A stretch of 48,923 nucleotides of DNA from Mycobacteriaceae bacterium (GTDB lineage: Bacteria; Pseudomonadota; Gammaproteobacteria; Burkholderiales; Burkholderiaceae_D): assembly GCA_903970145.1 (NCBI GenBank), contig CAJCHO010000062.1, positions 1 to 48,923 on the forward strand, in the 5' to 3' direction. Position 1 is the stretch's first letter, and each line of letters begins with the position of its first letter. Shown one piece after another: positions 1 through 16,397 of the stretch. Under the pieces are notes generated by a model. That model ran no database searches. It was not told the DNA's origin and saw only the letters and a list, made by a program, of their open reading frames with translations. The position numbers were made by a program, and so were the translations under genes.

Positions 1-285
1 CAGACCTACGAGGAGTTCGCGCGGCTCGCCAACGATGCCGCTGCCAGCCGGTATGCGCACGTCTTCGATGTCTGACGAAACGCGCAAGACGAGCTCATCG
101 GAGCCGGCGTCGTAGAGCCATACCGAGCAGCGCTCCGCTGCGAGGACGAGCTGCGCCGCGCGCACCACCTCGGTGAGCATCGCCTCGAGATCGAATGCCG
201 CTGCGAGCCGGCGCGTCACCGCCAGGATCGGTTCGAGCTCCTGGGTCGACAGCTTTCGGCGGCTGTCGCTGGCGTCCGTCGGACT
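1..285 (-). CDS. GAF-domain protein, N-terminal part only. The gene runs off the 5' edge of the window. The probable start is a GTG near 283-285.
   Basis: The minus-strand frame from about 285 down to position 1 is open, with third-position GC around 85%. It translates to VSPTDASDSRRKLSTQELEPILAVTRRLAAAFDLEAMLTEVVRAAQLVLAAERCSVWLYDAGSDELVLRVSSDIEDVRIPAGSGIVG. This matches the GAF consensus: a destabilising-prone core followed by the (R)IPxGxGIxG loop. There is no ATG in the frame; an in-frame TGA lies just upstream of the GTG, and an AGGGGG sits 9 nt upstream. The ORF track shows a different, Arg-rich frame at 95-307, which I regard as spurious. Confidence 0.4.
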
Positions 286-370
286 CACCCTTGCACCCCC
301 TGCTCAATCGTGGACCGGAGAGTGTCGCGCGTTTTGACGACTATTGCCACGTCGCAGAGGATGCGGGGGG

Positions 371-1426
371 CTATTCGTCCGGCCAGGGCGCGCCGGGCAC
401 CGTAACCGAGAACACCTCGACAGGCTTCGATAGACCGCGAATCGGCACGAGCCCAATCTCCTCGAACTCGAACTGGTCCTCAAGCTGCAGGCGGGTAGCA
501 GCGTCGGTCAGGATCGGTCGGCGCGCCACCTTGGTGTGCGCCTCAAGCCGCGCTGCCAGATTGACCGACTCGCCAATGCAGGTATAGGTGGCGCGCTTCT
601 GGGTGCCGGTGTAACCAGCGACCATGCGTCCGGTCGCAATGCCGATCCCGATGCGCAAGCCACTCTTGCCGACCATGGCGCGCTCGGCGTTCAGTAACTC
701 GATCATCTCCACCATGTCACGTGCCGCGCGCACAGCACTCGCGCTATGGTCGGGCAACGCGAGCGGCGCGCCAAATACCGCCATCAGGCCGTCGCCTACC
801 ATCTGATTAACTACCCCGCCGTTGCTGCTGATCGCCTCGAACATCAGGGTGTAATAGGTATTGAGAAACTCGATGGTTTCCTCAGGAGGTTGCTGCTCAA
901 CCAGGCTCGTAAAGGAGCGGATGTCGGAGAACATCACGCTGGCCCACACGTGCCGACCTCCCAGCGCAAATCCGGACTCCTGCACATCCTGTGCCACCTC
1001 GGGTGTGGCAAAGCGGCGCACCATTTCACGCTGCTGGTCACGCAGGAATTTCTTCTCCAGGCTGGCGCTGATGCGCGCCTTGAGCAGAATCGGATTTACG
1101 GGCTTACTGAGGTAATCCTCTGCCCCAAGCTCGATGCAACGCACGACGTTGGCGACTCCCTCCACCGAAGAAGTCACCACGACCGGCAGCTCGCGCAAGG
1201 AAAGGTCCGCCTTCAGTTCTTCGAGCACTTCGAAGCCGTTCATTTCCGGCATCTCGATATCGAGCAACAGAAGGTCGAAGGTCTGCTGACGCAACAGGTC
1301 GAGCGCGACCCGGCCGTTTTCGGCGAGCGTGGCACGGTAGCCGTGCAGCTCGAGGCTGCGGGCCAGCAAAAGCCGATTTACCTTGTTGTCATCAACCACC
1401 AACAGGCGCGCACCCGAATCACCCAC
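371..1426 (-). CDS. Two-domain response regulator: an N-terminal CheY-like receiver and a C-terminal class III adenylate/guanylate cyclase (CYCc) domain.
   Basis: The track ORF 371-1633 contains a REC motif (LLVVDDNKVNRLLLARSLELHGY...LLLLDIEMPEMNGFEVL). It also contains cyclase motifs (VMFSDIRSFTSLVE, FLNTYYTLMFEAISSNGGVVNQMVGDGLMAVFGAP, RIGIGIATGRMVAGYTGTQKRATYTCIGESVNLAARLE). The first ~70 codons of the track ORF are Arg-rich and overlap the Hpt ORF. A GTG at 1426-1424 lies 2 nt after the Hpt stop, with an AAGGG 9 nt upstream, so I place the start there. Confidence 0.85.
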   Translation of the reverse strand: MGDSGARLLVVDDNKVNRLLLARSLELHGYRATLAENGRVALDLLRQQTFDLLLLDIEMPEMNGFEVLEELKADLSLRELPVVVTSSVEGVANVVRCIELGAEDYLSKPVNPILLKARISASLEKKFLRDQQREMVRRFATPEVAQDVQESGFALGGRHVWASVMFSDIRSFTSLVEQQPPEETIEFLNTYYTLMFEAISSNGGVVNQMVGDGLMAVFGAPLALPDHSASAVRAARDMVEMIELLNAERAMVGKSGLRIGIGIATGRMVAGYTGTQKRATYTCIGESVNLAARLEAHTKVARRPILTDAATRLQLEDQFEFEEIGLVPIRGLSKPVEVFSVTVPGAPWPDE

Positions 1427-1658
1427 GCCGCAGACCCTTGAGTGCTGCAGCGACCTCGGTGTAAGTATGGGCGAGCGCGTCAACTGCCTTCTCGTCCTGC
1501 GCCGCATCGCTGTGCAAGCCGCCAAGCTCAATCTCGCGCGACTGGGCGGCAAGGCCAAGTGCCCCAAAGGTGTTGCAATTGGATTTGAGCGAATGGGCGT
1601 GGCGCCGGTACGCTTCCGCATTGCGCGCTGCAAGCGCTTCGCGAAGAGATGCGATCAT
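1419..1658 (-). CDS. Hpt (histidine phosphotransfer) domain ORF. It is most likely the frame-shifted C-terminal domain of the upstream 7xGAF protein rather than an independent 79-aa gene.
   Basis: HAHSLKSNCNTFGALGLA is a canonical Hpt phospho-histidine helix. The same frame stays open upstream of the ATG and encodes GAGEQLQESAGPEFVNELVDTFLEEAPQ, the first Hpt helix with the FLEEAP motif. So the domain begins before the annotated Met. The ATG at 1658 overlaps the TGA of the GAF ORF (ATGA). Confidence 0.6.
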   Translation of the reverse strand: MIASLREALAARNAEAYRRHAHSLKSNCNTFGALGLAAQSREIELGGLHSDAAQDEKAVDALAHTYTEVAAALKGLRRG

Positions 1659-4600
1659 CTGCGGCGCCTCCTCCAGAAAGGTGTCGACCAGCTCGTTGAC
1701 GAATTCCGGTCCGGCGCTTTCCTGCAGCTGCTCGCCAGCTCCGCCGCGCGCTCCTCGGTTTCCTTGAGCAGGCGCTGGGTTTCGTCGAACAGACGGGCGT
1801 TTTCCAAGGCTACGCTCATGCTGGCGGCAAGAGTCTCGAGCAAGCGCACATGCGCTGCCGTGAAGGCGTGCTCGCGCTCCATATCTAACAAAGCAATAAC
1901 GCCGCGCGCCTGGTTGCCAGATACCAAAGGGGCAATAATTGCCGACTTCTCTTCAGCGGTGCCGGGAATGGTGTACGTGCCGAGTTCATCCCTCTTCTCG
2001 TTCATGCGCTCATTGACCAGCATCGTCGTTCGGGTTCGCATGACTTCAGCCGTGAATCCAGATTCGGTATCCGGATTAAAGGGTGAAGGCTCGACCGACA
2101 GGCGCTGGCCCGACTCGTAGATGTAGGGAATGAGGAGCGTGTTCGACTTCGCATCGTGGATACGGATCGTGACGTCACCGTTCTGGAAAATCTCGCGAAT
2201 CTTGTCGCCAACGGCGTCGTAAATACCCTGCATGCTCAGTTCCGCAGCCAGGGCCTGCTGAACGCTATTGATGATCGCCAGCTCCGCCGCCCGCTCCCCA
2301 GTCTCCTGTAAGAGGCGCTGGGTTTCATCGAACAGACGGGCGTTTTCCAGCGCTACGCTCATGCCAGCCGCAAGGGTCTCAAGCAGGCGGACCTGCGCAG
2401 GGGTGAAGGCGTGCTCACGCTCCATATTGACCAGGCCAATCACGCCGCGCGCCTGATTCCCGGATATCAGGGGTACATTGATCGAGGACTTCTCCATTTG
2501 CGTCCCGGGAACGAGCACGGCCCCGTAACTGGCCGCCGTCTCAAGCATCTTGTCAGAGATGACCAGGGTCTGACGGCTTCGCATGACATGCGCCATGATT
2601 CCTGACGAAGTCGTCAGATCGAAGGGAGCGGCATCCACATGGAGTCTCTGCCCCGACTCGTACAGGTAAGGGAAGTGTCGCAGTTTCGCTTTATCGTCGT
2701 AGATGGCAATGGATACATCACTGTTCCCAAAAATCTCACCGATCTTGTCGCCAACCGCGTCATAGATCCCCTGCATGCTGAGCTCGGCCGCGAGCGCCTG
2801 CTGCACGCTGTTGATGATGGCAAGCTCAGCCGCGCGTTCCTCGGTTTCCTTCAAAAGTCGTTGTGTTTCGTCAAACAGACGTGCGTTCTCCAGCGCCACC
2901 CCCATGCTCGACGCGACCGTCGATACGAGGCGAATCTCCGCTTCGCCGAAGGCTTCGGCGCTGACGAAACTATCAAGCCCGATGGCACCCAGGACCTGGT
3001 CGCCAGCGATGATCGGCACCGTGAGGTCGCACAACGCTAGATCGGTGCCTTGCACCGTAGCCATCCCTTGTGTAGTCACGCGCACGATTGGCGAGCGCGT
3101 GGCAAGTGCCTGCTCGAAGGGGCCTCCTTTGACCGGCGTCCTGGCTTCGACGTGGATCCGCTTGCCGTGTTCGTAGACGTACAGGTACTCCAGCTTATTC
3201 TCGCTGGCATCGAACCAGATAATCTGAATATCCTCGCTACTGAGTACCGCGCGGAGCTCATCGCCAACCAGATCGATGATCGCAAGGAATTCGAGCTCCG
3301 CGGCGATTCCCTGCTGGATGCTGTTGATAACCGCGAGTTCGCCAGCACGCTGCTCGGTGACGCTCAACAGGCGCTGCGTCTCATCGAACAGGCGGGCATT
3401 CTCGAGAGCTACGCTCATGCTGCCCGCAAGCGTCTGCAAAAGGCGCACATCGGAGTCACTGAACGCGTGCTGCGGATAGGCATACAGAGATATCAAGCCA
3501 ACCGCTTCCTCGTCGCGCAGGATGGGAACAGCGAGATAACTCTCGGTCCACACGCCCTGCGGGTCGCCGATGAACTCGGCGCCCAGCTCGACGGCGCGCT
3601 TTGCCAGGTCTTCTCCGATCAGCAGTGTCTGGCCAGTACGTATGACGTGCGCCGCAAATCCGCGACCGAGCTCCTTGGGCTCTATGACGAAGCGCTTGCC
3701 GCTCTCGAGGAAATAGGGAACCCGCCTGGTATTGCTCGCCTTGTCGTAGAGCGTTATCGACATGTCCTCGGTCTTGAAGATCTCTGCGACCTTGTCGCCG
3801 ACGAGATCAATGATGGCCGTGAAGTCGAGCTTCGAAGCGAGGCCGTCCTGCACGCTGTTTATGATGGCCAGCTCGGCGGCCCGCTGGTCGGTTTCCTTGT
3901 AGAGACGCTGGGTTTCATCGAGCAGGCGTGCGTTCTCCAGCGCCACCCCCATGCTCGCCGCTACCGTCGTCAACAGGCGTATTTCGGATTCACCATAGGC
4001 GTTCTCGCGCTCGTAGTCTTCAAGATGAATCGATCCCAACACCCGATCGCTGCCAATGATCGGTACTGCAGCCACTGAGAAGGCGTGATCCGTACCCGCG
4101 AGGTGACCGATCCCCTCCCGAGCCTGCTCTTCCCGTGAATTCAGGACAAAGGCGCGTCGGGTTTGCAGCAGCCGTTTGAATGTGCCACCTACCAGCTTGG
4201 GCTCAATGTGTAGTCGCTCACCGTGCTCGAACTCGTAGAGATAGTGAATCAGCCCGGTATTTGGGTCGTACCAACGGATGCCGATCTCTTCGGTGTGCAA
4301 CACCTCGCGCAACTTGCCACCGACCAGATCGATGATGGCCTGGAAATTGAGCTCCTGGGCCATGCCTTGCTGGATGCTGTTGATCACCGCGAGTTCAGCC
4401 GCGCGCTGCTCCGTCTCCTTGAGCAGGCGCTGGGTTTGATCGAACAGGCGCGCGTTGGAGAGCGCCACGCTCATGCTCGACGCAAGCGTCTCGAGAAGTC
4501 GGACATGCGACGCGGTATACGCGTGTTCCCGCTCTGTATCGGTAAGCCGAAGCAGCCCGCGCACGCGCCCATCCGAGATCAAGGGCACGTAAAGTGCCGA

Positions 4601-5620
4601 CTTCTCCTCAACAGTTCCGGGCATCAGGTAACTGCCCATCTGCTCAGTTACCTGATCTATGTGCTCGTTGACCAGCAAGGTACGGCCGGTGTCAACGATG
4701 TGTCGCATGAAGCCCCGTTCCGATAGAACATTGGGCGGCAGAAAAAGACGCTCCCGCATTTCGTAGGTATAGGGATAGCTGACCATGCCGCTTTTCTCGT
4801 CGTAGATTCGCACTCCGACGTCGGCCCCATCGAATATTTCGCGCAGCTTGTCGCCCACAGCGTCGTAAATCTCTTGAAGGCCAAGCTCCGCAGCGAGCGC
4901 CTGCTGGATGGCGTTGATGACCGCGAGCTCGCTGGCGCGTTCATCGATCTCGACCTTGGATGCGACCAGCTCGGCGGTGCGTGCGGCAAGTTCGGCCTCG
5001 AGCGCACTGGCGCGACGTGCATTAGCGAGCACGAGCGCAGTCTGAGATGCGAGCATGGCCAGCAAGTTGAGATCATTCGCATCGAAGCGGCCCCATGCCC
5101 CGTCGATGTCGGCGTAGACGTACCCCGTCAGCTCAACGCCAGAGACAAGTGGCGCAATCAGGCATGAGCGTTGATCTGTCGATTTCGCGCCTTGCGGGCC
5201 GTGTCGCAGGCGCGCCTTGCGCGTCCGCCGAGCCTCGTCAATCCAAGGCGTAATCGCCGCTACCAACTTGCGTTGATCCTCGCCAGTTGGCAGGCGTACG
5301 CCTGCCATTGACAGTCCATTCTCGTGCTCAAGAATTATGAGGATTCGTTGGGCGCCAGACACTTCGCTGACCGCATCGATCAGGGAGGTGTAGATTTCTT
5401 CGACCTGTCGATCTGGCGGCAAACTCGCTGCTATAGGAGGCAAACCTCGAGCAGGTGCTTTTTTCCCGGCAGCCCGGCTTCCGGATGCCGGCGCGCGCGC
5501 AGCAGTACGCTTCGCCGGGCTACGCGAATTCGCTTTGATCACTTCCCCTCCCCTGACGGCTTGCGTTCGGTCACCGTGGGGCTTGGCCTGCCACAGCGAA
5601 AATGAAGTATGGCGAGGCAA
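1655..5620 (-). CDS. Large cytoplasmic sensor protein of 1321 aa with about seven tandem GAF domains joined by conserved coiled-coil signalling-helix linkers. It has no recognisable kinase, cyclase or DNA-binding output in this frame.
   Basis: Repeated modules have the form ENARLFDETQRLLKETEERAAELAIINSVQQALAAELSMQGIYDAVGDKI ... PLVSGNQARGVIALLDMEREHAFTAAHVRLLETLAASMSVALENARLFDETQRLL. There are six clear copies plus a more divergent N-terminal GAF-like region. The last two copies are nearly identical in protein sequence. There are no TM segments, and no HisKA or HATPase motifs. Confidence 0.8.
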   Translation of the reverse strand: MPRHTSFSLWQAKPHGDRTQAVRGGEVIKANSRSPAKRTAARAPASGSRAAGKKAPARGLPPIAASLPPDRQVEEIYTSLIDAVSEVSGAQRILIILEHENGLSMAGVRLPTGEDQRKLVAAITPWIDEARRTRKARLRHGPQGAKSTDQRSCLIAPLVSGVELTGYVYADIDGAWGRFDANDLNLLAMLASQTALVLANARRASALEAELAARTAELVASKVEIDERASELAVINAIQQALAAELGLQEIYDAVGDKLREIFDGADVGVRIYDEKSGMVSYPYTYEMRERLFLPPNVLSERGFMRHIVDTGRTLLVNEHIDQVTEQMGSYLMPGTVEEKSALYVPLISDGRVRGLLRLTDTEREHAYTASHVRLLETLASSMSVALSNARLFDQTQRLLKETEQRAAELAVINSIQQGMAQELNFQAIIDLVGGKLREVLHTEEIGIRWYDPNTGLIHYLYEFEHGERLHIEPKLVGGTFKRLLQTRRAFVLNSREEQAREGIGHLAGTDHAFSVAAVPIIGSDRVLGSIHLEDYERENAYGESEIRLLTTVAASMGVALENARLLDETQRLYKETDQRAAELAIINSVQDGLASKLDFTAIIDLVGDKVAEIFKTEDMSITLYDKASNTRRVPYFLESGKRFVIEPKELGRGFAAHVIRTGQTLLIGEDLAKRAVELGAEFIGDPQGVWTESYLAVPILRDEEAVGLISLYAYPQHAFSDSDVRLLQTLAGSMSVALENARLFDETQRLLSVTEQRAGELAVINSIQQGIAAELEFLAIIDLVGDELRAVLSSEDIQIIWFDASENKLEYLYVYEHGKRIHVEARTPVKGGPFEQALATRSPIVRVTTQGMATVQGTDLALCDLTVPIIAGDQVLGAIGLDSFVSAEAFGEAEIRLVSTVASSMGVALENARLFDETQRLLKETEERAAELAIINSVQQALAAELSMQGIYDAVGDKIGEIFGNSDVSIAIYDDKAKLRHFPYLYESGQRLHVDAAPFDLTTSSGIMAHVMRSRQTLVISDKMLETAASYGAVLVPGTQMEKSSINVPLISGNQARGVIGLVNMEREHAFTPAQVRLLETLAAGMSVALENARLFDETQRLLQETGERAAELAIINSVQQALAAELSMQGIYDAVGDKIREIFQNGDVTIRIHDAKSNTLLIPYIYESGQRLSVEPSPFNPDTESGFTAEVMRTRTTMLVNERMNEKRDELGTYTIPGTAEEKSAIIAPLVSGNQARGVIALLDMEREHAFTAAHVRLLETLAASMSVALENARLFDETQRLLKETEERAAELASSCRKAPDRNSSTSWSTPFWRRRRR
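1735..4950 (-). repeat. Intragenic tandem repeat array: six GAF-module units with a period of about 505-545 nt inside the 1321-aa gene.
   Basis: The linker and GAF peptide blocks recur periodically. Their antisense shadow ORFs (MMIASSAARS..., 62-133 aa) recur at 2268, 2775 and 3276 on the plus strand. The DNA of adjacent units is diverged, but the linker segments are conserved. Confidence 0.75.
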
Positions 5621-7132: not shown

Positions 7133-7610
7133 TCGCCGCTCCCGTCAGTCGAGGCCACGGCGGGAGTACTTTGTTCTCGCATCATCAATCTCCGCCTAGT
7201 AGGAGCACGTCAAATCCCGAGCAGCAGGCCGCTGGGCGATCGGGGGAACCGGCTCCTTGACCTTGGCCGGGTCGTATTTGCAGTCGTTGCTGGCGCAGGC
7301 ATTGGCCGCGTGCGCTGAGCAGTAGTTCCATGCCTCGACATAGGAGGAACAGGTGGTAGCCAGGTCGTCGTCGTCAAGCTTTTCCTCGATGCACAGGGTC
7401 TGTTGGTCGGCCGGACTCTGGTTCGACTGCCACTAGGTTGCGCACTGCCTCTTGGCATCCTCAATTGATGGCGCATGGTCCTTTGCCTCGGTAGTAATCC
7501 AGCAGGCAGCCACAAAGTCAATCTCTTCGTCGGCGATCAGCTGGAAGCTGTCACCGCAACGCCTGCTCGGGTCCCCGGTGCAGCAGTTATAGCTCGTCAC
7601 GTCAGGGTGG

Positions 7611-10618: not shown

Positions 10619-12847
10619 TTGCACGGCATGACCCAGCAGAGCACCCTCGACATTGGCATCGGCGGCATGACCTGCGCGTCTTGCGTGGCGCGCGTCGAGA
10701 AAGCCTTAAAGAAAGTCGCGGGAGTCGACGAGGCGAGCGTCAATCTCGCAAGTGAGTCAGCGCGCGTCGTCTTCAGTCCGGACATGCAGATGGAGGCGCG
10801 TCTGCGTCGCGCAGTGCGCGATGCAGGCTATCAGGCGCGCAGCCGCGAGGAGGTGGCGGCCCAGGATCATCTGGCGCCCTGGGCAGGTTTCGCGCCTGTC
10901 GCATACGGGCTGATTCTCTCGACGCCACTCGTCTTACCTATGGCGCTTGGTTTCTCAGGCATCCACTGGATGCTGCCGCCGTGGCTGCAATGCCTTTTAG
11001 CGACTCCGGTTCAGTTCATCCTCGGCGCGCGCTTTTACAAGGCCGCCTGGCACGCGCTCAAGGCGCGAGCGGGCAATATGGATCTGCTTGTTGCGATCGG
11101 GACGACGTCCGCCTGGACACTTTCGGTGTGGCTCTGGCTGACGGGTACGCCTGATGAGCCGCAGCACCTGTACTTCGAAGGCTCGGCGCTCGTCATTACT
11201 CTCGTACTGCTGGGCAAGTGGCTCGAGTCCCGCGCCAAGCGCGAAACGATGAGCGCGATTCGCGCGCTGCGCTCGCTGCAACCCGGCCAGGTCCACTTGC
11301 GTGAGCGCGAGAGCGAGGTCGATATCTCGCTCGCGGATGTCCTCCTCGACGATCAGATCGTGATCAGGTCAGGCGAGCGGGTACCCGTGGACGGCGTGGT
11401 GCTCGAAGGCGATTCGGAGCTCGACGAGTCGATGCTGACCGGTGAGGCCCTCCCGGTAGCAAAGTACATCGGTGCACGAGTGACCGGTGGCTCCATCAAC
11501 GGCACGGGACGGATCGTCGTCAGGGTCACGGCAACCGGAAGCGAGACGGTACTTGCGCGGATCGTGCGTCTGGTCGAGGATGCCCAGGCCGCCAAAGCGC
11601 CAATCCAGCGTCTGGTCGATCAGATCGCCGCTGTATTCGTGCCTGCCGTATTGCTCGTCGCGCTGGTGACCCTCCTCGGATGGATCGCGACGGGGGCATC
11701 GTTCGCCGATGCGACCATCAACGCCGTGTGCGTGCTGGTCATCGCCTGTCCCTGTGCCCTGGGACTCGCCACGCCAGTGGCAATCATGGCCGGCACTGGC
11801 GTTGCCGCGAAATTCGGCATCCTCATCAAGAATGCCGAGGCTCTGGAAACCCTGCACCGGGCCGACACGGTCGTCTTTGACAAGACCGGAACCCTGACAG
11901 TCGGAAAGCTGCGGCTGACCACTCTGGTTTGCGGCGCCGGGATCGACGAGACGCGGCTGCTGTCGATCGCTGCTGCGCTACAGACAGCGAGCGAACACCC
12001 GATCGCTCGTGCGATTCGTGATGCCGCCCGAGAGCGCCACCTCACATTCATCGATCCCGTCGAAGTCCGGGTTCTGCCCGGGCGCGGCGTTCAGGGGATA
12101 GTCGAGGGCACCACCTACATGCTTGGAAGTCTGCCCTGGATGAACGAACTGGAATACCAGCCGGGCATTCTTGCGGGAGAGACGGCGCGCCTATTAAGCA
12201 AGCCAGCGAGCCTTGTCGCGCTTGCGCAAGACGTCAACGCCAAGACGCAACTCCTGGGTCTCATGGCCTTTAGCGACACCGCCAAACCCGACGCGCGCGC
12301 AACGCTTGCGACACTGCGCGCGCGCGGTATGCGGCTCGTGATGTTGACGGGCGACAGTCGCGCTACGGCGCAAGGCATGGCAATCGAACTCGGGCTTGAT
12401 GTAGAGCAAGGCGAAGTAATCAGCCAGGTGCTACCAGCCGACAAAGCCTCGGAAATCTTGCGCTTAAGGGGAGCGGCCAGTTCGCATCACCATATCGTCG
12501 CCATGGTTGGCGACGGAATCAACGATGCGCCGGCACTGGCCGCAGCCGACATCGGTATCGCGATGGCTGGTGGGAGCGACCTCGCAATCAATGCCGCCGG
12601 CATCACTCTGATGCGCGGTGATGTAGCACTCGTTGACGCCGCCCTTGACGTGTCCAGGCGTACCGTCCTGAAAATCCGCCAGAATCTGTTTCTGGCTTTC
12701 GCTTATAACGTGGCCGCGATTCCCCTGGCGGCCCTGGGCCTGCTCAACCCCGTCGTCGCGGGTGCGGCCATGGCATTGAGTTCAGTAAGTGTGATCGCAA
12801 ACGCCCTGCTGCTAAGACGTTGGAGGCCCAAGCCAGGAAGGCGCTAA
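10619..12847 (+). CDS. copA: Copper-translocating P1B-type ATPase CopA.
   Basis: An N-terminal HMA motif [13 protein letters not shown] is present, with a CPC transmembrane motif ([11 protein letters not shown]), DKTGTLT, and [10 protein letters not shown]. The true start is probably the internal ATG three codons in (MTQQSTL). The gene is divergent from copZ across a ~120-nt intergenic region. Confidence 0.9.
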
Positions 12848-13221: not shown

Positions 13222-13553
13222 GCAAATCTCCTGGTGGCACTTCGTGGGATTCCCTCTGGACACTACGTGTGTAGCAGCGCCAAGTGGCCCAATCTAGTCG
13301 CCCGGTCTCCGAGTGTCGGTATGCCAACGAACCAATAGGCAAGGGCTGAATAGACTTGGCGCGGCGCTTGCCCGAAGCCGCACGTGAGCCCATCCGCCAG
13401 AGTGCACGGCGACCGAAACCGAACATTCGTGCGATGCCACACAGACTTGATCACACCCGGGCGTCACAGTCCGGAAAAGCCCGGCTCCTGCCGCTGGCTT
13501 GTTCATCCAAGTTGCGCCCGATAAGACCGGGCCAGCACTACCGGAGCCCGACC

Positions 13554-14126
13554 ATGGACCAGGCCGTCAAGACCAAGAAGCCCTTTTTGACCGACATCAA
13601 GACCCTGCGTGAGCGCGCTAAAAAACACCTGGGCGAGGGAAACGTCACCTTCACCTATGAGGGCGACGCCAACAAGACAATCGAGATCCTGCAGGCTGTG
13701 CTTGCCACCGAGATTGTGTGCGTGCTGCGCTATACCATGCACTCGGTCGCTGCCGCCGGTCTGTCGAGCGAGGGTGTGAAAAAGGAATTCGAAGTTCATG
13801 CGGGCGAGGAACTGGCCCATGCGCTCAGTGTCGCCGAGCGCATCAACCAGTTGGGTGGCGTACCCGACTTCAATCCAAAGGGACTCGCAACCCGCTCAAG
13901 TACCGAATACGGCGACGCCGAAAACCTGGTGGAAATGATCACCGAGAATCTGATCGCAGAACGTATCGCGGTCGACCACTACCGCGAACTGGTGCGCTAC
14001 TTCGGCAATGACGACCCGGGTACGCGCACGATGCTAGAAGGCATCCTCGTGACCGAAGAAGAGCACCTCAACGACATGCATGACCTCCTGGTTGCGCACC
14101 AGGGAAAGCCAACGCTGTCGCGCTAG
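13554..14126 (+). CDS. Ferritin-like protein of the Dps/bacterioferritin superfamily.
   Basis: The block AGEELAHALSVAERINQLGGVPDF corresponds to the Dps motif DEIAERIxQLGGxP. Helix residues ENLIAERIAVDHYRELV also match. A GGAG lies 7 nt upstream of the MDQAVKT start. The ~200 codons in front of it in the track ORF are non-coding-like. Confidence 0.7.
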   Translation: MDQAVKTKKPFLTDIKTLRERAKKHLGEGNVTFTYEGDANKTIEILQAVLATEIVCVLRYTMHSVAAAGLSSEGVKKEFEVHAGEELAHALSVAERINQLGGVPDFNPKGLATRSSTEYGDAENLVEMITENLIAERIAVDHYRELVRYFGNDDPGTRTMLEGILVTEEEHLNDMHDLLVAHQGKPTLSR

Positions 14127-14153
14127 CTCGCGTCCCCGGCGGGAATCGTCGCT

Positions 14154-15770
14154 TCAGAGAACCGTAAAGAAGTGGCTGCCGTCGCGCGCGAGTTGCGCGA
14201 CCAAACCAAACTCCCAGTTGAGATATGCCTGCATCGCGGCGCGTGGGTTGTCGGTGCCCTCATAGGGTCGGCGATAGCGATCGATTGCGTCCGACATGAG
14301 ATACGTCGCGCCCGCTTCACTGGCCAGACCCGCGCCGAACCAGGCATCGTTGCCGCCCGCGAGCACGCGCACGCGGCGCGCGCCCGACTCGGCGAGATCT
14401 CGCGCGGCAAATTTCGCGAGGAGCCCACAGGCGGAGGTGAGCACGATCTCCCCCTTGCCCGCAAGCTGCTCCAGGCGAGCGGCAAGCTCCGAGCGCAGGA
14501 TCCACCGTGCGCCAGGGATGTGGCACCCCACGTAATCGCGCGATGCCTGAAGATCGAGCAGCGTGACGCCGCCAGAAGCGATCCAATCGGAAAGCTCGTC
14601 CGGGCTCACTTCTTCGACGGACCCGGGATCCGGAACCGGCGGGACCCAATCACCTGTGCAGAACTCCGCCGAGTCTTCCGTCGGCCGGGCGCTGGCGTTG
14701 AGCACCGCGACCTGCCAGCCCATCTGCGCGAGCCAGGATGCGCTCATATTGGCGCGTACCCCATCATCGTCGGTGAGCACAATGCGCGCCCCCCGCACCG
14801 GGGCATAGACGTCAGTCTCCTGCACGAGCTGCCCGCCCGGGGCGCTTCTAAACCCGCGCCGATGGCCGGCAGCGAACTCAATCGGATCACGTACGTCGAA
14901 CTGGTACAGAGTTCGCGAGCTATCCGCTCGCCACTCGTCCAATCGTTCAGGACCGATTCGCGCCACACCAGCGCGCAGAGCCACCTCCTCCGCGGACTTC
15001 ATCATCGAGACGCGCATCTGCGCTGTCACAGCAGGGCCATCGGAAAAACGCCGCGACTGGCCGTGCGCCAGCTTTTTACCGGCAAGGGTCCAGCCTATCG
15101 TGCCGTTGCGCAAGGCTGCAACCGGATTGGGAATACCAGCATTGATGAGCGACTGGGTGCCGATGATGCTGCGCGTGCGCCCGGCACAGTTGACGATGAT
15201 GCGCGTGCCCGAATTCGGGGCGAGATGCCGCGCCCTCAGCACCAGCTCAGCCCCCGGCACGCTGGTTGCACCCGGGATGCTCATCGTCTGATACTCGTCA
15301 AAGCGCCGCGCATCGAGAACCACGACGTCGGCGCGCGAATTAAGCAGGTCCTCGACCTCTTCCGCGGACAATGAGGGCGTGTGGCGCGTCGACTCGACCA
15401 ACTCGCCAAATGCCTTGCTTGGCACATTGACGTCACGAAATATTTCCAGGCCTGCCGCGCGCCACGCCGCGAGACCACCGTCCAGAAGGAAGACCTGCGT
15501 ATATCCAAGTTTGCGCAGCACGGCCGCGGCCCGTGGCGCAAGCCCCTCGCCATCCTCGTAGACGGCAATCTGCACGTCGCGCCGCGGCAGGCGAGAGTAG
15601 GCCTGCAACTCCAACTGGGACAGGGGGAGGTTGGCGGCCCAGAGGGGATGGGCCTGGGCGTAGGGATCTTCCTCGCGCACGTCGAGTAGCGCGATCTCGA
15701 CGCGCGACAGGAGCGCTGCCCGCACGTCGGCTGCGGTCAAGCTCGCCTCGTTAGCTGGCGCTCGATTCAT
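14154..15770 (-). CDS. Sulfurtransferase with four tandem rhodanese domains.
   Basis: Rhodanese active-site-loop contexts repeat four times (IVNCAGRTRS, RSAPGG, HIPGARW, TSACG). The 538 aa resemble the multi-rhodanese partner of bacterial thiol dioxygenases. Confidence 0.8.
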   Translation of the reverse strand: MNRAPANEASLTAADVRAALLSRVEIALLDVREEDPYAQAHPLWAANLPLSQLELQAYSRLPRRDVQIAVYEDGEGLAPRAAAVLRKLGYTQVFLLDGGLAAWRAAGLEIFRDVNVPSKAFGELVESTRHTPSLSAEEVEDLLNSRADVVVLDARRFDEYQTMSIPGATSVPGAELVLRARHLAPNSGTRIIVNCAGRTRSIIGTQSLINAGIPNPVAALRNGTIGWTLAGKKLAHGQSRRFSDGPAVTAQMRVSMMKSAEEVALRAGVARIGPERLDEWRADSSRTLYQFDVRDPIEFAAGHRRGFRSAPGGQLVQETDVYAPVRGARIVLTDDDGVRANMSASWLAQMGWQVAVLNASARPTEDSAEFCTGDWVPPVPDPGSVEEVSPDELSDWIASGGVTLLDLQASRDYVGCHIPGARWILRSELAARLEQLAGKGEIVLTSACGLLAKFAARDLAESGARRVRVLAGGNDAWFGAGLASEAGATYLMSDAIDRYRRPYEGTDNPRAAMQAYLNWEFGLVAQLARDGSHFFTVL

Positions 15771-15800
15771 CGGTGGCGCATTCGAAATGGACGTAGGCCG

Positions 15801-16397
15801 CTACTGGACCGCCGAATAGCCGGAAACAAAACCCTTGCGCCTGCCATCAAGGCCATAGGTCGAACGCTTTACCTGCCCGATGTCAGCGCCATAGATATGG
15901 ATGCTGATCGAGTCGCGATCCTCATAAGCATTGCGCACAAGATGAATATCGCCGATCGAGGGCGACACCGCTTCAACCTGCCCGGGCACGAGCCGCACCT
16001 CCTTGCCCGAAGCGACCAGCCTGTCCGGTCCGGCAAAGTGATAAGCCTGTGAACATTCGGCACCGCGCAGCATACCGATCAGACCCCATACGGTGTGATC
16101 GTGAATCGGAGTCTTCTGGCCAGGTCCCCATACAAAGGAGATCACCGAAAAACGCGCGTGCGGGTCAATATAGAGCGGGTACTGTCGGTAGTGCTCCGGT
16201 CCGGCTACTGCGAAGGCTGCCGGCAGCCAGTCGTCGTGAGCCACCAGTGCCGCGAGAAGTCGACCGGCTTCTGCAAGCACGCGCCCTTCCGATGGATTCT
16301 CGTCGATCAGACGCGACAGCGCCTGCACGAACTCATCGAGGGCGCCGCGTGTAGCGGCCCCCCTCTTGTCGGCGGCAGTGCTCGTGGTCTCTGTCAT
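15801..16397 (-). CDS. Cupin thiol dioxygenase of the cysteine dioxygenase type I / 3-mercaptopropionate dioxygenase family.
   Basis: VISFVWGPGQKTPIHDHTVWGLIGMLRGAE shows the 3-His cupin motif typical of bacterial CDO/3MDO. The protein is about 198 aa, and the gene lies 30 nt upstream of the rhodanese gene on the same strand. Confidence 0.75.
   Translation of the reverse strand: MTETTSTAADKRGAATRGALDEFVQALSRLIDENPSEGRVLAEAGRLLAALVAHDDWLPAAFAVAGPEHYRQYPLYIDPHARFSVISFVWGPGQKTPIHDHTVWGLIGMLRGAECSQAYHFAGPDRLVASGKEVRLVPGQVEAVSPSIGDIHLVRNAYEDRDSISIHIYGADIGQVKRSTYGLDGRRKGFVSGYSAVQ

What the first reader, a model, noticed from the sequence alone, without database searches (positions are those of the whole stretch)
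1655..1760. One-nucleotide frame change separates the GAF array from its Hpt domain (frameshift, pseudogene or recoding)
The annotated Hpt ORF starts at an ATG overlapping the GAF-ORF stop (ATGA). Upstream of that ATG the Hpt frame stays open and encodes the canonical first Hpt helix (GEQLQESAGPEFVNELVDTFLEEAPQ-M-IASLREALAARNAEAYRRHAHSLKS). In contrast, the GAF frame ends in Arg-rich junk (…AELASSCRKAPDRNSSTSWSTPFWRRRRR).

The two frames meet right after the last conserved linker motif …ERAAELA, around the sequence ctggcgagcagctgcag. Restoring one nucleotide there, for example ctggcgGagcag, would give a continuous …ERAAELAEQLQESAGPEF…Hpt protein.

So there are three possibilities:
1. A sequencing or assembly indel in a homopolymer context.
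2. A recent inactivating mutation.
3. A -1 slippage site.
Basis: seen in the sequence. Interest (0 to 1): 0.55.

Follow-up and report, generated by a model that had tools for sequence, protein, structure and literature searches.

The report
Deletion scar truncating kinase and Hpt genes
The frame change is real, but it is the out-of-frame scar of a deletion of about 2.6 kb that removed the catalytic half of a sensor kinase gene and the start of the neighbouring Hpt gene; it is not a one-base slip inside a GAF-Hpt fusion protein, so it is an ordinary broken locus or an assembly fault.

Summary
On the minus strand a 1321-aa GAF-array ORF (5620..1655) ends in ATGA with a 79-aa Hpt ORF (1658..1419). 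The Hpt frame stays open upstream and encodes genuine Hpt sequence (22/25 residues identical to the closest homologue).

All listed homologues are stand-alone Hpt proteins of 110-122 aa with their own start codon. None is fused to GAF domains.

In about 27 of 36 related genomes, Hpt is preceded within 90 nt by a giant hybrid kinase (GAFn-HisKA-HATPase-REC-REC) and followed by the same REC-adenylate cyclase. The window has the kinase's N-terminus and GAF array. At 1732-1734 it jumps from a GAF linker (...ERAAELA) straight into Hpt codon 12/13.

Missing are two terminal GAFs, HisKA, HATPase, both REC domains, the spacer and Hpt codons 1-11/12, about 2.6 kb in all.

There is no homopolymer, no slippery heptamer, no stimulatory RNA structure and no upstream start codon. 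The 79-aa ORF lacks helix alpha1 and 17 of 27 residues of helix alpha2.

Most likely this is a recent real deletion that left pseudogene remnants. A chimeric assembly cannot be excluded without reads. Interest is low.

The parts
1735..5620 (-). 5' remnant of a multi-GAF hybrid histidine kinase gene. It holds the N-terminal region plus 7 GAF units and ends in the linker ...ALENARLFDETQRLLKETEERAAELA.
   Evidence: Pfam finds 7 GAF stretches and no HisKA/HATPase/REC. Residues 23-218 are 45% identical to the N-terminus of the 1791-aa Variovorax gracilis kinase (L012). The array is 52% identical over 1151 aa to the L049 kinase and colinear with L001. The units recur every 513-543 nt and are 60-81% identical in DNA.
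1732..1734 (-). Deletion or chimera breakpoint: CGA, which could come from either side (possible 3-nt microhomology).
   Evidence: Exact identity to the preceding GAF linker (2275-2290) runs through 1732. Homology to orthologous Hpt genes starts at codon 12/13, at 1733/1730. The microhomology is inferred from TT[C GA]G in orthologues and is not proven.
1655..1731 (-). Out-of-frame tail of the GAF ORF (SSCRKAPDRNSSTSWSTPFWRRRRR*): Hpt DNA read in the wrong frame.
   Evidence: Translations of the three frames. The tail aligns with no kinase orthologue.
1659..1733 (-). Stranded Hpt codons 12-36, covering the end of helix alpha1 and the first 17 residues of helix alpha2. They lie in the -1 frame relative to the GAF ORF and have no start codon.
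   Evidence: 22/25 residues are identical to P0002, and the frame has no ATG/GTG/TTG back to the stop at 1955. Pfam Hpt profile positions 1-13 are matched here. Alignment A1.
1667..1674 (-). Shine-Dalgarno-like GGAGGAGG, 8 nt before ATG 1658, formed by the conserved L-E-E-A codons of Hpt.
   Evidence: Read directly from the sequence. It probably explains why gene callers start an ORF at the internal Met37.
1419..1658 (-). 79-aa ORF equal to Hpt residues 37-115. It contains the phospho-accepting His in the HSLKSN motif and starts at a conserved internal Met.
   Evidence: Pfam Hpt 33.5 bits, profile positions 14-83. His is invariant in alignments A1/A2. Helices were mapped from the AF2 model of P0002 and from HptB 7C1I.
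371..1426 (-). Intact REC-class III nucleotidyl cyclase gene. Its GTG start overlaps the Hpt stop by 8 nt (GTGGGTGA), as in orthologues.
   Evidence: Pfam Response_reg plus Guanylate_cyc. It is 74% identical to orthologues. L001 has the same 8-nt overlap (7148-7155).

Best explanation
The frame change is the junction of a deletion in a three-gene phosphorelay operon. It is not a point frameshift.

The ancestral locus, as seen in relatives, was:
1. A giant hybrid sensor kinase (N-terminal region, GAF array, two terminal GAFs, HisKA, HATPase_c, REC, REC).
2. A stand-alone HptB-like protein of about 115 aa.
3. A REC-adenylate/guanylate cyclase.

In this window about 2.6 kb is missing. The gap runs from just after a GAF linker (...ERAAELA) to Hpt codon 11/12, joined at 1732-1734, possibly through a 3-nt CGA microhomology. 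The join is out of frame by one base.

Consequences:
- The kinase remnant reads 25 junk codons and stops.
- Hpt codons 12-36 have no start codon.
- Gene callers restart at the conserved internal Met37, which has an accidental GGAGG upstream, giving the 79-aa ORF.

Shown: the missing segment, the breakpoint position, the separate Hpt gene in relatives, and the absence of frameshift signals.

Inferred:
- The deletion exists in the organism rather than only in the assembly.
- It is recent, because both remnants are otherwise undecayed.
- The kinase remnant cannot signal and the 79-aa product cannot form the four-helix bundle.
For: - Homologues are stand-alone Hpt proteins of 110-122 aa with no GAF fusion. 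Their N-termini are conserved, and the window lacks that part.
- Synteny: L001 and the P0004 locus have a kinase of >2259 / >2560 aa, then Hpt of 115 aa, then the REC-cyclase.
- In 26-27 of 36 loci from species-representative genomes (two MAGs contribute two loci each), HisKA-HATPase-REC-REC ends within 90 nt of the Hpt start.
- Complete kinases L012, L007 and L049 all end in HisKA-HATPase-REC-REC.
- The window has no HisKA/HATPase anywhere in its 48.9 kb.
- The window ORF shares the kinase N-terminus and the GAF array.
- Colinear mapping puts the junction at about L001 residue 1404 of 2259 and L049 residue 1980 of 2822. That means about 842-855 codons are missing.
- The breakpoint is resolved to 1732-1734.
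- No homopolymer and no slippery heptamer; no RNA structure; no alternative start codon.
- The longest exact repeat in the array is 31 nt, and nothing longer than 16 nt is shared at the junction. Repeat collapse or a k-mer mis-join is therefore unlikely.
- Ten neighbouring ORFs were scanned, nine of them complete. Those checked against profile coordinates (MFS transporter, LysR regulator, P-type ATPase) match nearly full-length Pfam models. The contig is not riddled with indels.
- The AF2 model of intact P0002 (pLDDT 92.9; helices 8-18, 20-46, 50-67, 70-82, 88-114) agrees with the HptB crystal structure 7C1I (PMC7467158). The 79-aa ORF starts at residue 37.
Against: - No reads, and no second assembly of this organism. 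Both the 79-aa Hpt and the cyclase are singletons from this one NCBI contig. A metagenome scan found nothing. A chimeric read or contig with exactly this structure therefore cannot be excluded.
- The closest relatives are only about 74% identical, so the ancestral state is inferred from distant orthologues and the deleted length is an estimate (1.6-3.2 kb).
- Both remnants are free of further lesions: 1321 codons are open and all Hpt invariant residues are kept. This fits a very recent event, but it equally fits an artefact or retained function.
- A few relatives (L009, L033) have Hpt-cyclase without an adjacent kinase, although their Hpt is full length.
Confidence: 0.65

Rival explanations
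1. Assembly or library artefact. A chimeric read, or a minority structural variant chosen by the assembler, produced the same GAF-linker-to-Hpt-codon-12 join. The organism would then carry the intact kinase and a 115-aa Hpt.
For: The sequence is known from one contig only. Both flanks are otherwise pristine. Tandem GAF arrays are hard to assemble.
Against: The repeat units are only 60-81% identical. The longest exact repeat is 31 nt, and the junction shares at most 3 nt between its two sides, so a graph or repeat mis-join has no substrate. The rest of the contig shows intact genes. Chimeric reads rarely win a consensus.
Confidence: 0.26
2. One reading: a one-nucleotide indel, either a sequencing error or a recent mutation, in an originally continuous GAF-array-Hpt fusion ORF.
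For: Adding one base at 1732-1735 would formally join the two frames.
Against: - No fused homologue among the best 120 hits.
- Orthologues have a separate Hpt with a conserved N-terminus that is absent here, and 2.6 kb of kinase sequence in between.
- No homopolymer at the site.
- A kinase-less GAF-Hpt protein would have no source of phosphate (inference from established two-component-system biochemistry).
Confidence: 0.03
3. Programmed -1 ribosomal frameshifting, or another recoding event, makes a GAF-array-Hpt fusion from the two overlapping frames.
For: The Hpt frame is the -1 frame of the GAF ORF. It is open and well conserved for 25 codons before the GAF stop.
Against: - No X XXY YYZ heptamer in frame and no homopolymer.
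- The downstream RNA folds no better than shuffled sequence (z = 0.18).
- The arrangement is unique to this contig.
- The conservation is explained by recent descent from a normal Hpt gene.
Confidence: 0.01
4. The deletion is real but the remnants still work. The 79-aa mini-Hpt would be translated from Met37 using the GGAGGAGG site or by coupling at ATGA, and charged by a paralogous hybrid kinase to drive the REC-cyclase. The GAF array would act as a stand-alone ligand binder.
For: - There is an SD-like site 8 nt upstream and an ATGA overlap.
- His and the HSLKSN motif are intact.
- Some relatives carry two copies of the operon (L022/L039, L011/L043), and some carry Hpt-cyclase without an adjacent kinase (L009, L033).
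Against: - The ORF lacks alpha1 and 17 of 27 residues of alpha2, one of the four bundle helices.
- That stretch includes the core residues and the REC-contacting positions described for HptB (PMC7467158).
- No homologue shorter than 110 aa was seen among the listed hits.
Confidence: 0.05

Closest known systems
HptB-type multistep phosphorelay of Pseudomonas aeruginosa (hybrid kinases such as PA1611, then HptB; structure 7C1I, PMC7467158)
   Same: The intact relatives of this Hpt are stand-alone proteins of about 115 aa. P0002 matches the HptB chain 7c1i_A at E = 2e-10. The AF2 model has the same five-helix layout, with His in the second bundle helix. As with HptB, the Hpt receives phosphate from the REC domain of a hybrid kinase; this last point rests on established knowledge of such relays.
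   Different: - In relatives the kinase is a cytoplasmic giant with 5 to more than 10 GAF domains and two REC domains, encoded immediately upstream.
- The output is a REC-class III cyclase rather than HsbR.
- In the window, the kinase transmitter and the Hpt N-terminus are deleted.
Pseudogenes made by intragenic or intergenic deletion through illegitimate (microhomology) recombination
   Same: Two adjacent genes are joined out of frame. At most 3 nt of shared sequence lies at the breakpoint. There is a junk C-terminal tail and a 5'-truncated downstream gene.
   Different: Nothing unusual. Only the recency of the event stands out: no secondary lesions were seen in either remnant.
Programmed -1 frameshifting genes (e.g. 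dnaX, IS element transposases; from general knowledge)
   Same: There are two overlapping frames, and the downstream one encodes a real domain.
   Different: There is no slippery site, no stimulatory structure and no conservation. The upstream and downstream parts do not form one protein in any related locus examined here.

Membership tests
Hpt domain / HptB-like stand-alone phosphotransfer protein (PF01627) | Significant match to the Hpt profile | tested here: met
   The 79-aa ORF scores 33.5 bits. With the upstream frame it scores 49.9 bits. The cut-off is 24.6.
Hpt domain / HptB-like stand-alone phosphotransfer protein (PF01627) | Conserved phospho-accepting His in the H-S-L-K-S/G motif | tested here: met
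   AHSLKSN is present, and the His column is invariant in A1/A2.
Hpt domain / HptB-like stand-alone phosphotransfer protein (PF01627) | Complete four-helix bundle (alpha2-alpha5) with the alpha1 cap, encoded in one translatable ORF | tested here: not met
   The ORF starts at residue 37 of 115, so alpha1 (8-18) and residues 20-36 of alpha2 (20-46) are outside it. Codons 1-11/12 are absent from the DNA. There is no upstream start codon.
Hybrid histidine kinase | HisKA dimerisation/phospho-acceptor domain | tested here: not met
   Absent from the 1321-aa ORF and from the whole window (tblastn). Present in orthologues.
Hybrid histidine kinase | HATPase_c catalytic domain | tested here: not met
   Present in orthologues.
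Hybrid histidine kinase | C-terminal receiver domain(s) | tested here: not met
   The only REC domain in the region belongs to the cyclase.
Hybrid histidine kinase | Sensor region orthologous to that of the complete kinases | tested here: met
   The N-terminus is 45% identical to L012, and the array is 52% identical to L049 over 1151 aa.
Programmed -1 ribosomal frameshift site | Slippery heptamer X XXY YYZ in the zero frame | tested here: not met
   None between 1900 and 1640.
Programmed -1 ribosomal frameshift site | Stable downstream stimulatory structure | tested here: not met
   MFE -48.4 kcal/mol against a shuffle mean of -49.1, z = 0.18.
Programmed -1 ribosomal frameshift site | Two-frame arrangement conserved in relatives | tested here: not met
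   All 55 loci with an Hpt match (49 distinct; L001-L006 all carry the identical P0002 gene) have a separate full-length Hpt.
Single-base sequencing indel | Homopolymer context, with both flanks colinear with one orthologous ORF | tested here: not met
   No run of 4 or more bases in 1655-1760. The flanks map about 2.6 kb apart in orthologues.

The most novel reading that the evidence does not exclude
The scar is tolerated because it created something usable. One possibility is a kinase-less GAF-array protein plus a 79-aa mini-Hpt, translated from the internal Met behind an accidental Shine-Dalgarno site and charged by a paralogous hybrid kinase. Another is a low-level trans-frame GAF-array-Hpt fusion. 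Either would be a snapshot of domain shuffling in a phosphorelay.
Probability: 0.04. Interest if true: 0.5.

Novelty: already known. Interest (0 to 1): 0.12.

Why it matters
Mainly as an annotation correction. The '1321-aa GAF protein' and the '79-aa Hpt protein' from this contig should be treated as remnants of a disrupted kinase-Hpt-cyclase operon, or as a possible assembly fault. They should not be counted as a new GAF-Hpt architecture or as a recoding site.

It also shows that a one-base frame offset between two ORFs can hide a multi-kilobase deletion, which only comparison with orthologues reveals.

The intact family seen in relatives may deserve attention in its own right. It consists of kinases of 1562 to more than 3200 aa (the window's closest relatives, such as L049, are 2800 aa or more) with up to 10 or more tandem GAF domains, feeding an HptB-like protein and a REC-cyclase.

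Tried and rejected
- Exact look-up of the 79-aa ORF and the cyclase in public assemblies, to find the source record or a second assembly: nothing on record. Cluster look-up shows both are singletons.
- Degenerate DNA pattern encoding ESAGPEFVNELVDTFLEEAPQMI scanned against JGI metagenomes, to find the same species with or without the deletion: 0 matches.
- Search for the missing HisKA-HATPase-REC-REC segment elsewhere in the window (inversion or translocation idea): absent.
- Repeat-collapse explanation: rejected. The units are 60-81% identical and the longest exact repeat is 31 nt.
- Slippery heptamer, homopolymer and RNA-structure tests for recoding: all negative.
- GC3 frame plot across the junction: uninformative in this GC-rich DNA.
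- Alternative start codons for a longer Hpt: no canonical start codon, only three CTG codons.
- Literature search for this operon type: only general HptB papers turned up.
Full report
**What is in the sequence.** All relevant genes lie on the minus strand.
- A 1321-aa ORF (5620..1655) contains seven GAF stretches and nothing else.
- Its stop codon overlaps, as ATGA, the ATG of a 79-aa ORF (1658..1419) that matches Pfam Hpt at profile positions 14-83 (33.5 bits).
- The Hpt stop in turn overlaps by 8 nt the GTG start of an intact REC-class III cyclase (1426..371).

- Upstream of ATG 1658 the Hpt frame stays open and reads ...GEQLQESAGPEFVNELVDTFLEEAPQ.
- The GAF frame meanwhile runs into SSCRKAPDRNSSTSWSTPFWRRRRR*.
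- Including the upstream stretch raises the Hpt score to 49.9 bits and moves the match to profile position 1.
- 22 of its 25 residues are identical to the closest homologue.
- The Hpt frame is open for 98 codons upstream but holds no ATG, GTG or TTG, so this part cannot be translated on its own.

**What relatives look like.** I searched 5.8 billion proteins with a 'repaired' junction protein: 39 aa of GAF linker plus 105 aa of Hpt.
- Apart from the window's own 79-aa ORF, the best 120 hits are all proteins of 110-122 aa carrying only PF01627. Several are named HptB by their source.
- These hits cover at most about 75% of the query, which corresponds to the Hpt part. None extends into the linker.
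- Their N-termini read M-x4-I-D-x-A-T-[FY]-x-E-L-Q-E-x-A-G-x-E-F.
- In the window's Hpt frame the nearly invariant I-D and the aromatic residue are replaced by the out-of-frame reading of the GAF linker (NRGARGGAG). Homology begins only at EQLQES.

**Gene neighbourhoods.**
- The closest homologue's locus (L001) and the P0004 locus have a gene of more than 2259 aa (more than 2560 aa for P0004) directly upstream. Next comes Hpt of 115 aa, then a REC-cyclase of 357-370 aa overlapping the Hpt end.
- The big L001 gene encodes at least 10 GAFs, HisKA, HATPase_c and two REC domains.
- A scan of species-representative genomes with the cyclase returned 80 loci. The best reached 74% identity. Most are Burkholderiales-type MAGs, and one is the isolate Variovorax gracilis.
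- In 55 loci with an Hpt match (49 from this scan, the rest being the six P0002 loci), Hpt is a separate gene of 110-120 aa with its own start codon.
- In 26-27 of 36 loci examined, HisKA-HATPase-REC-REC ends within 90 nt of that start. In 7 more the kinase lies within 2.6 kb. Two loci have none in the fetched flank.
- Complete kinases are 1562, 1791 and 2822 aa long, and all end in HisKA-HATPase-REC-REC.

**What therefore happened in the window.** The window ORF is the same kinase gene.
- Its N-terminus is 45% identical to that of the V. gracilis kinase.
- Its array is 52% identical over 1151 aa to L049 and colinear with L001.

HisKA, HATPase_c and the kinase REC domains are absent from the ORF and from all 48.9 kb of the window. 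Going downstream, identity to the preceding GAF linker is exact through base 1732. Homology to Hpt genes starts at codon 12/13, at 1733/1730.

The junction corresponds to about residue 1404 of the L001 kinase fragment and about residue 1980 of L049. The missing piece is therefore two terminal GAFs, HisKA, HATPase_c, two RECs, the spacer and Hpt codons 1-11/12. That is roughly 2.6 kb, at least 1.6 kb, and more if the ancestor had extra GAF units.

The three bases CGA (1734-1732) could derive from either side, which would be a typical microhomology. This is an inference. The one-base frame offset is simply how the two broken ends happened to meet.

- *Sequencing indel.* There is no run of four or more identical bases in 1655-1760, and the flanks are not neighbours in any orthologue.
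- *Slippage.* There is no X XXY YYZ heptamer. The 126 nt from the junction onward fold no better than shuffles (z = 0.18). The arrangement is unique to this contig.
- *Inactivating mutation.* Correct in kind, but it is a deletion of kilobases. One added base would give a kinase-less GAF-Hpt protein with no counterpart among the homologues and related loci examined here.

**Consequences (inferred).** An AF2 model of the intact homologue P0002 (pLDDT 92.9) has helices at 8-18, 20-46, 50-67 (with His58), 70-82 and 88-114. This matches the crystal structure of P. aeruginosa HptB, where alpha2-alpha5 form the four-helix bundle and alpha1 caps it (PMC7467158).

The 79-aa ORF starts at residue 37. 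It therefore lacks alpha1 and 17 of the 27 residues of alpha2, including positions that in HptB pack the core and touch the receiver domain. It starts at a conserved internal Met preceded by GGAGGAGG (1674-1667). That site is just the L-E-E-A codons, and it probably explains why the ORF was called. The kinase remnant has no transmitter, so the REC-cyclase is left without its cognate input.

**Real or artefact?** I cannot decide this without reads.

Points against an assembly fault:
- The GAF units are only 60-81% identical.
- The longest exact repeat is 31 nt, and the two sides of the junction share at most 3 nt.
- Neighbouring genes are intact.

Points in favour:
- The sequence is known from one contig only (metagenome scan negative).
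- Both remnants are otherwise undamaged. This means either a very recent event or none at all.

I put a genuine deletion, including a population variant, at about 0.65 and an artefact at about 0.26.

**Verdict.** Interest is low. The intact giant multi-GAF kinase-Hpt-cyclase operon in relatives is the more interesting by-product.

Noticed in passing
window 1-288 (-): A GTG-started ORF runs off the window start and begins a GAF-like domain (Pfam GAF/GAF_3 E about 1e-4, only 96 aa visible). It sits downstream of the cyclase, where the relatives L001 and the P0004 locus instead have convergent cNMP_binding and Lcl_C genes.
   Followed up: partly
L049:1175-9640, L025:855-9638, L029:213-9629, L022, L040, L043 (upstream of Hpt): Relatives encode giant hybrid kinases of 2800 to more than 3200 aa, with tandem arrays of up to 10 or more GAF domains joined by a near-identical linker (ALENARLFDETQRLL.ETE.RAAELA.IN). 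The number of units varies between species. The operon occurs in MAGs labelled Burkholderiales and also in MAGs labelled Chloroflexota/Anaerolineales.
   Followed up: partly
L022 + L039 (MFD00032.bin.2.155); L011 + L043 (MFD02134.bin.2.183): Two copies of the kinase-Hpt-REC-cyclase operon occur in the same MAG. Paralogous copies exist, and they could buffer the loss of one.
   Followed up: no
L008, L015, L018, L027 (region before Hpt): The stop-to-stop ORF before Hpt is only 309-653 aa although HisKA-to-REC2 homology is all present. The kinase gene is interrupted by frame changes in these assemblies, either through long-read indel errors or as further pseudogenes.
   Followed up: no
L009, L033: The Hpt-cyclase pair has a full-length Hpt but no kinase within the fetched upstream flank. 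The pair can exist away from its kinase.
   Followed up: no
window 1667-1674 (-): A perfect Shine-Dalgarno-like GGAGGAGG lies 8 nt before the internal Met37 codon of Hpt. It is created by the conserved L-E-E-A codons, and Met37 is itself conserved in most homologues.
   Followed up: partly
window 13356-16397: A cluster of a ferritin-like protein, a protein with four rhodanese domains (538 aa) and a cysteine-dioxygenase-like protein. It follows a P-type heavy-metal ATPase (10619-12847). The genes look ordinary and intact.
   Followed up: no
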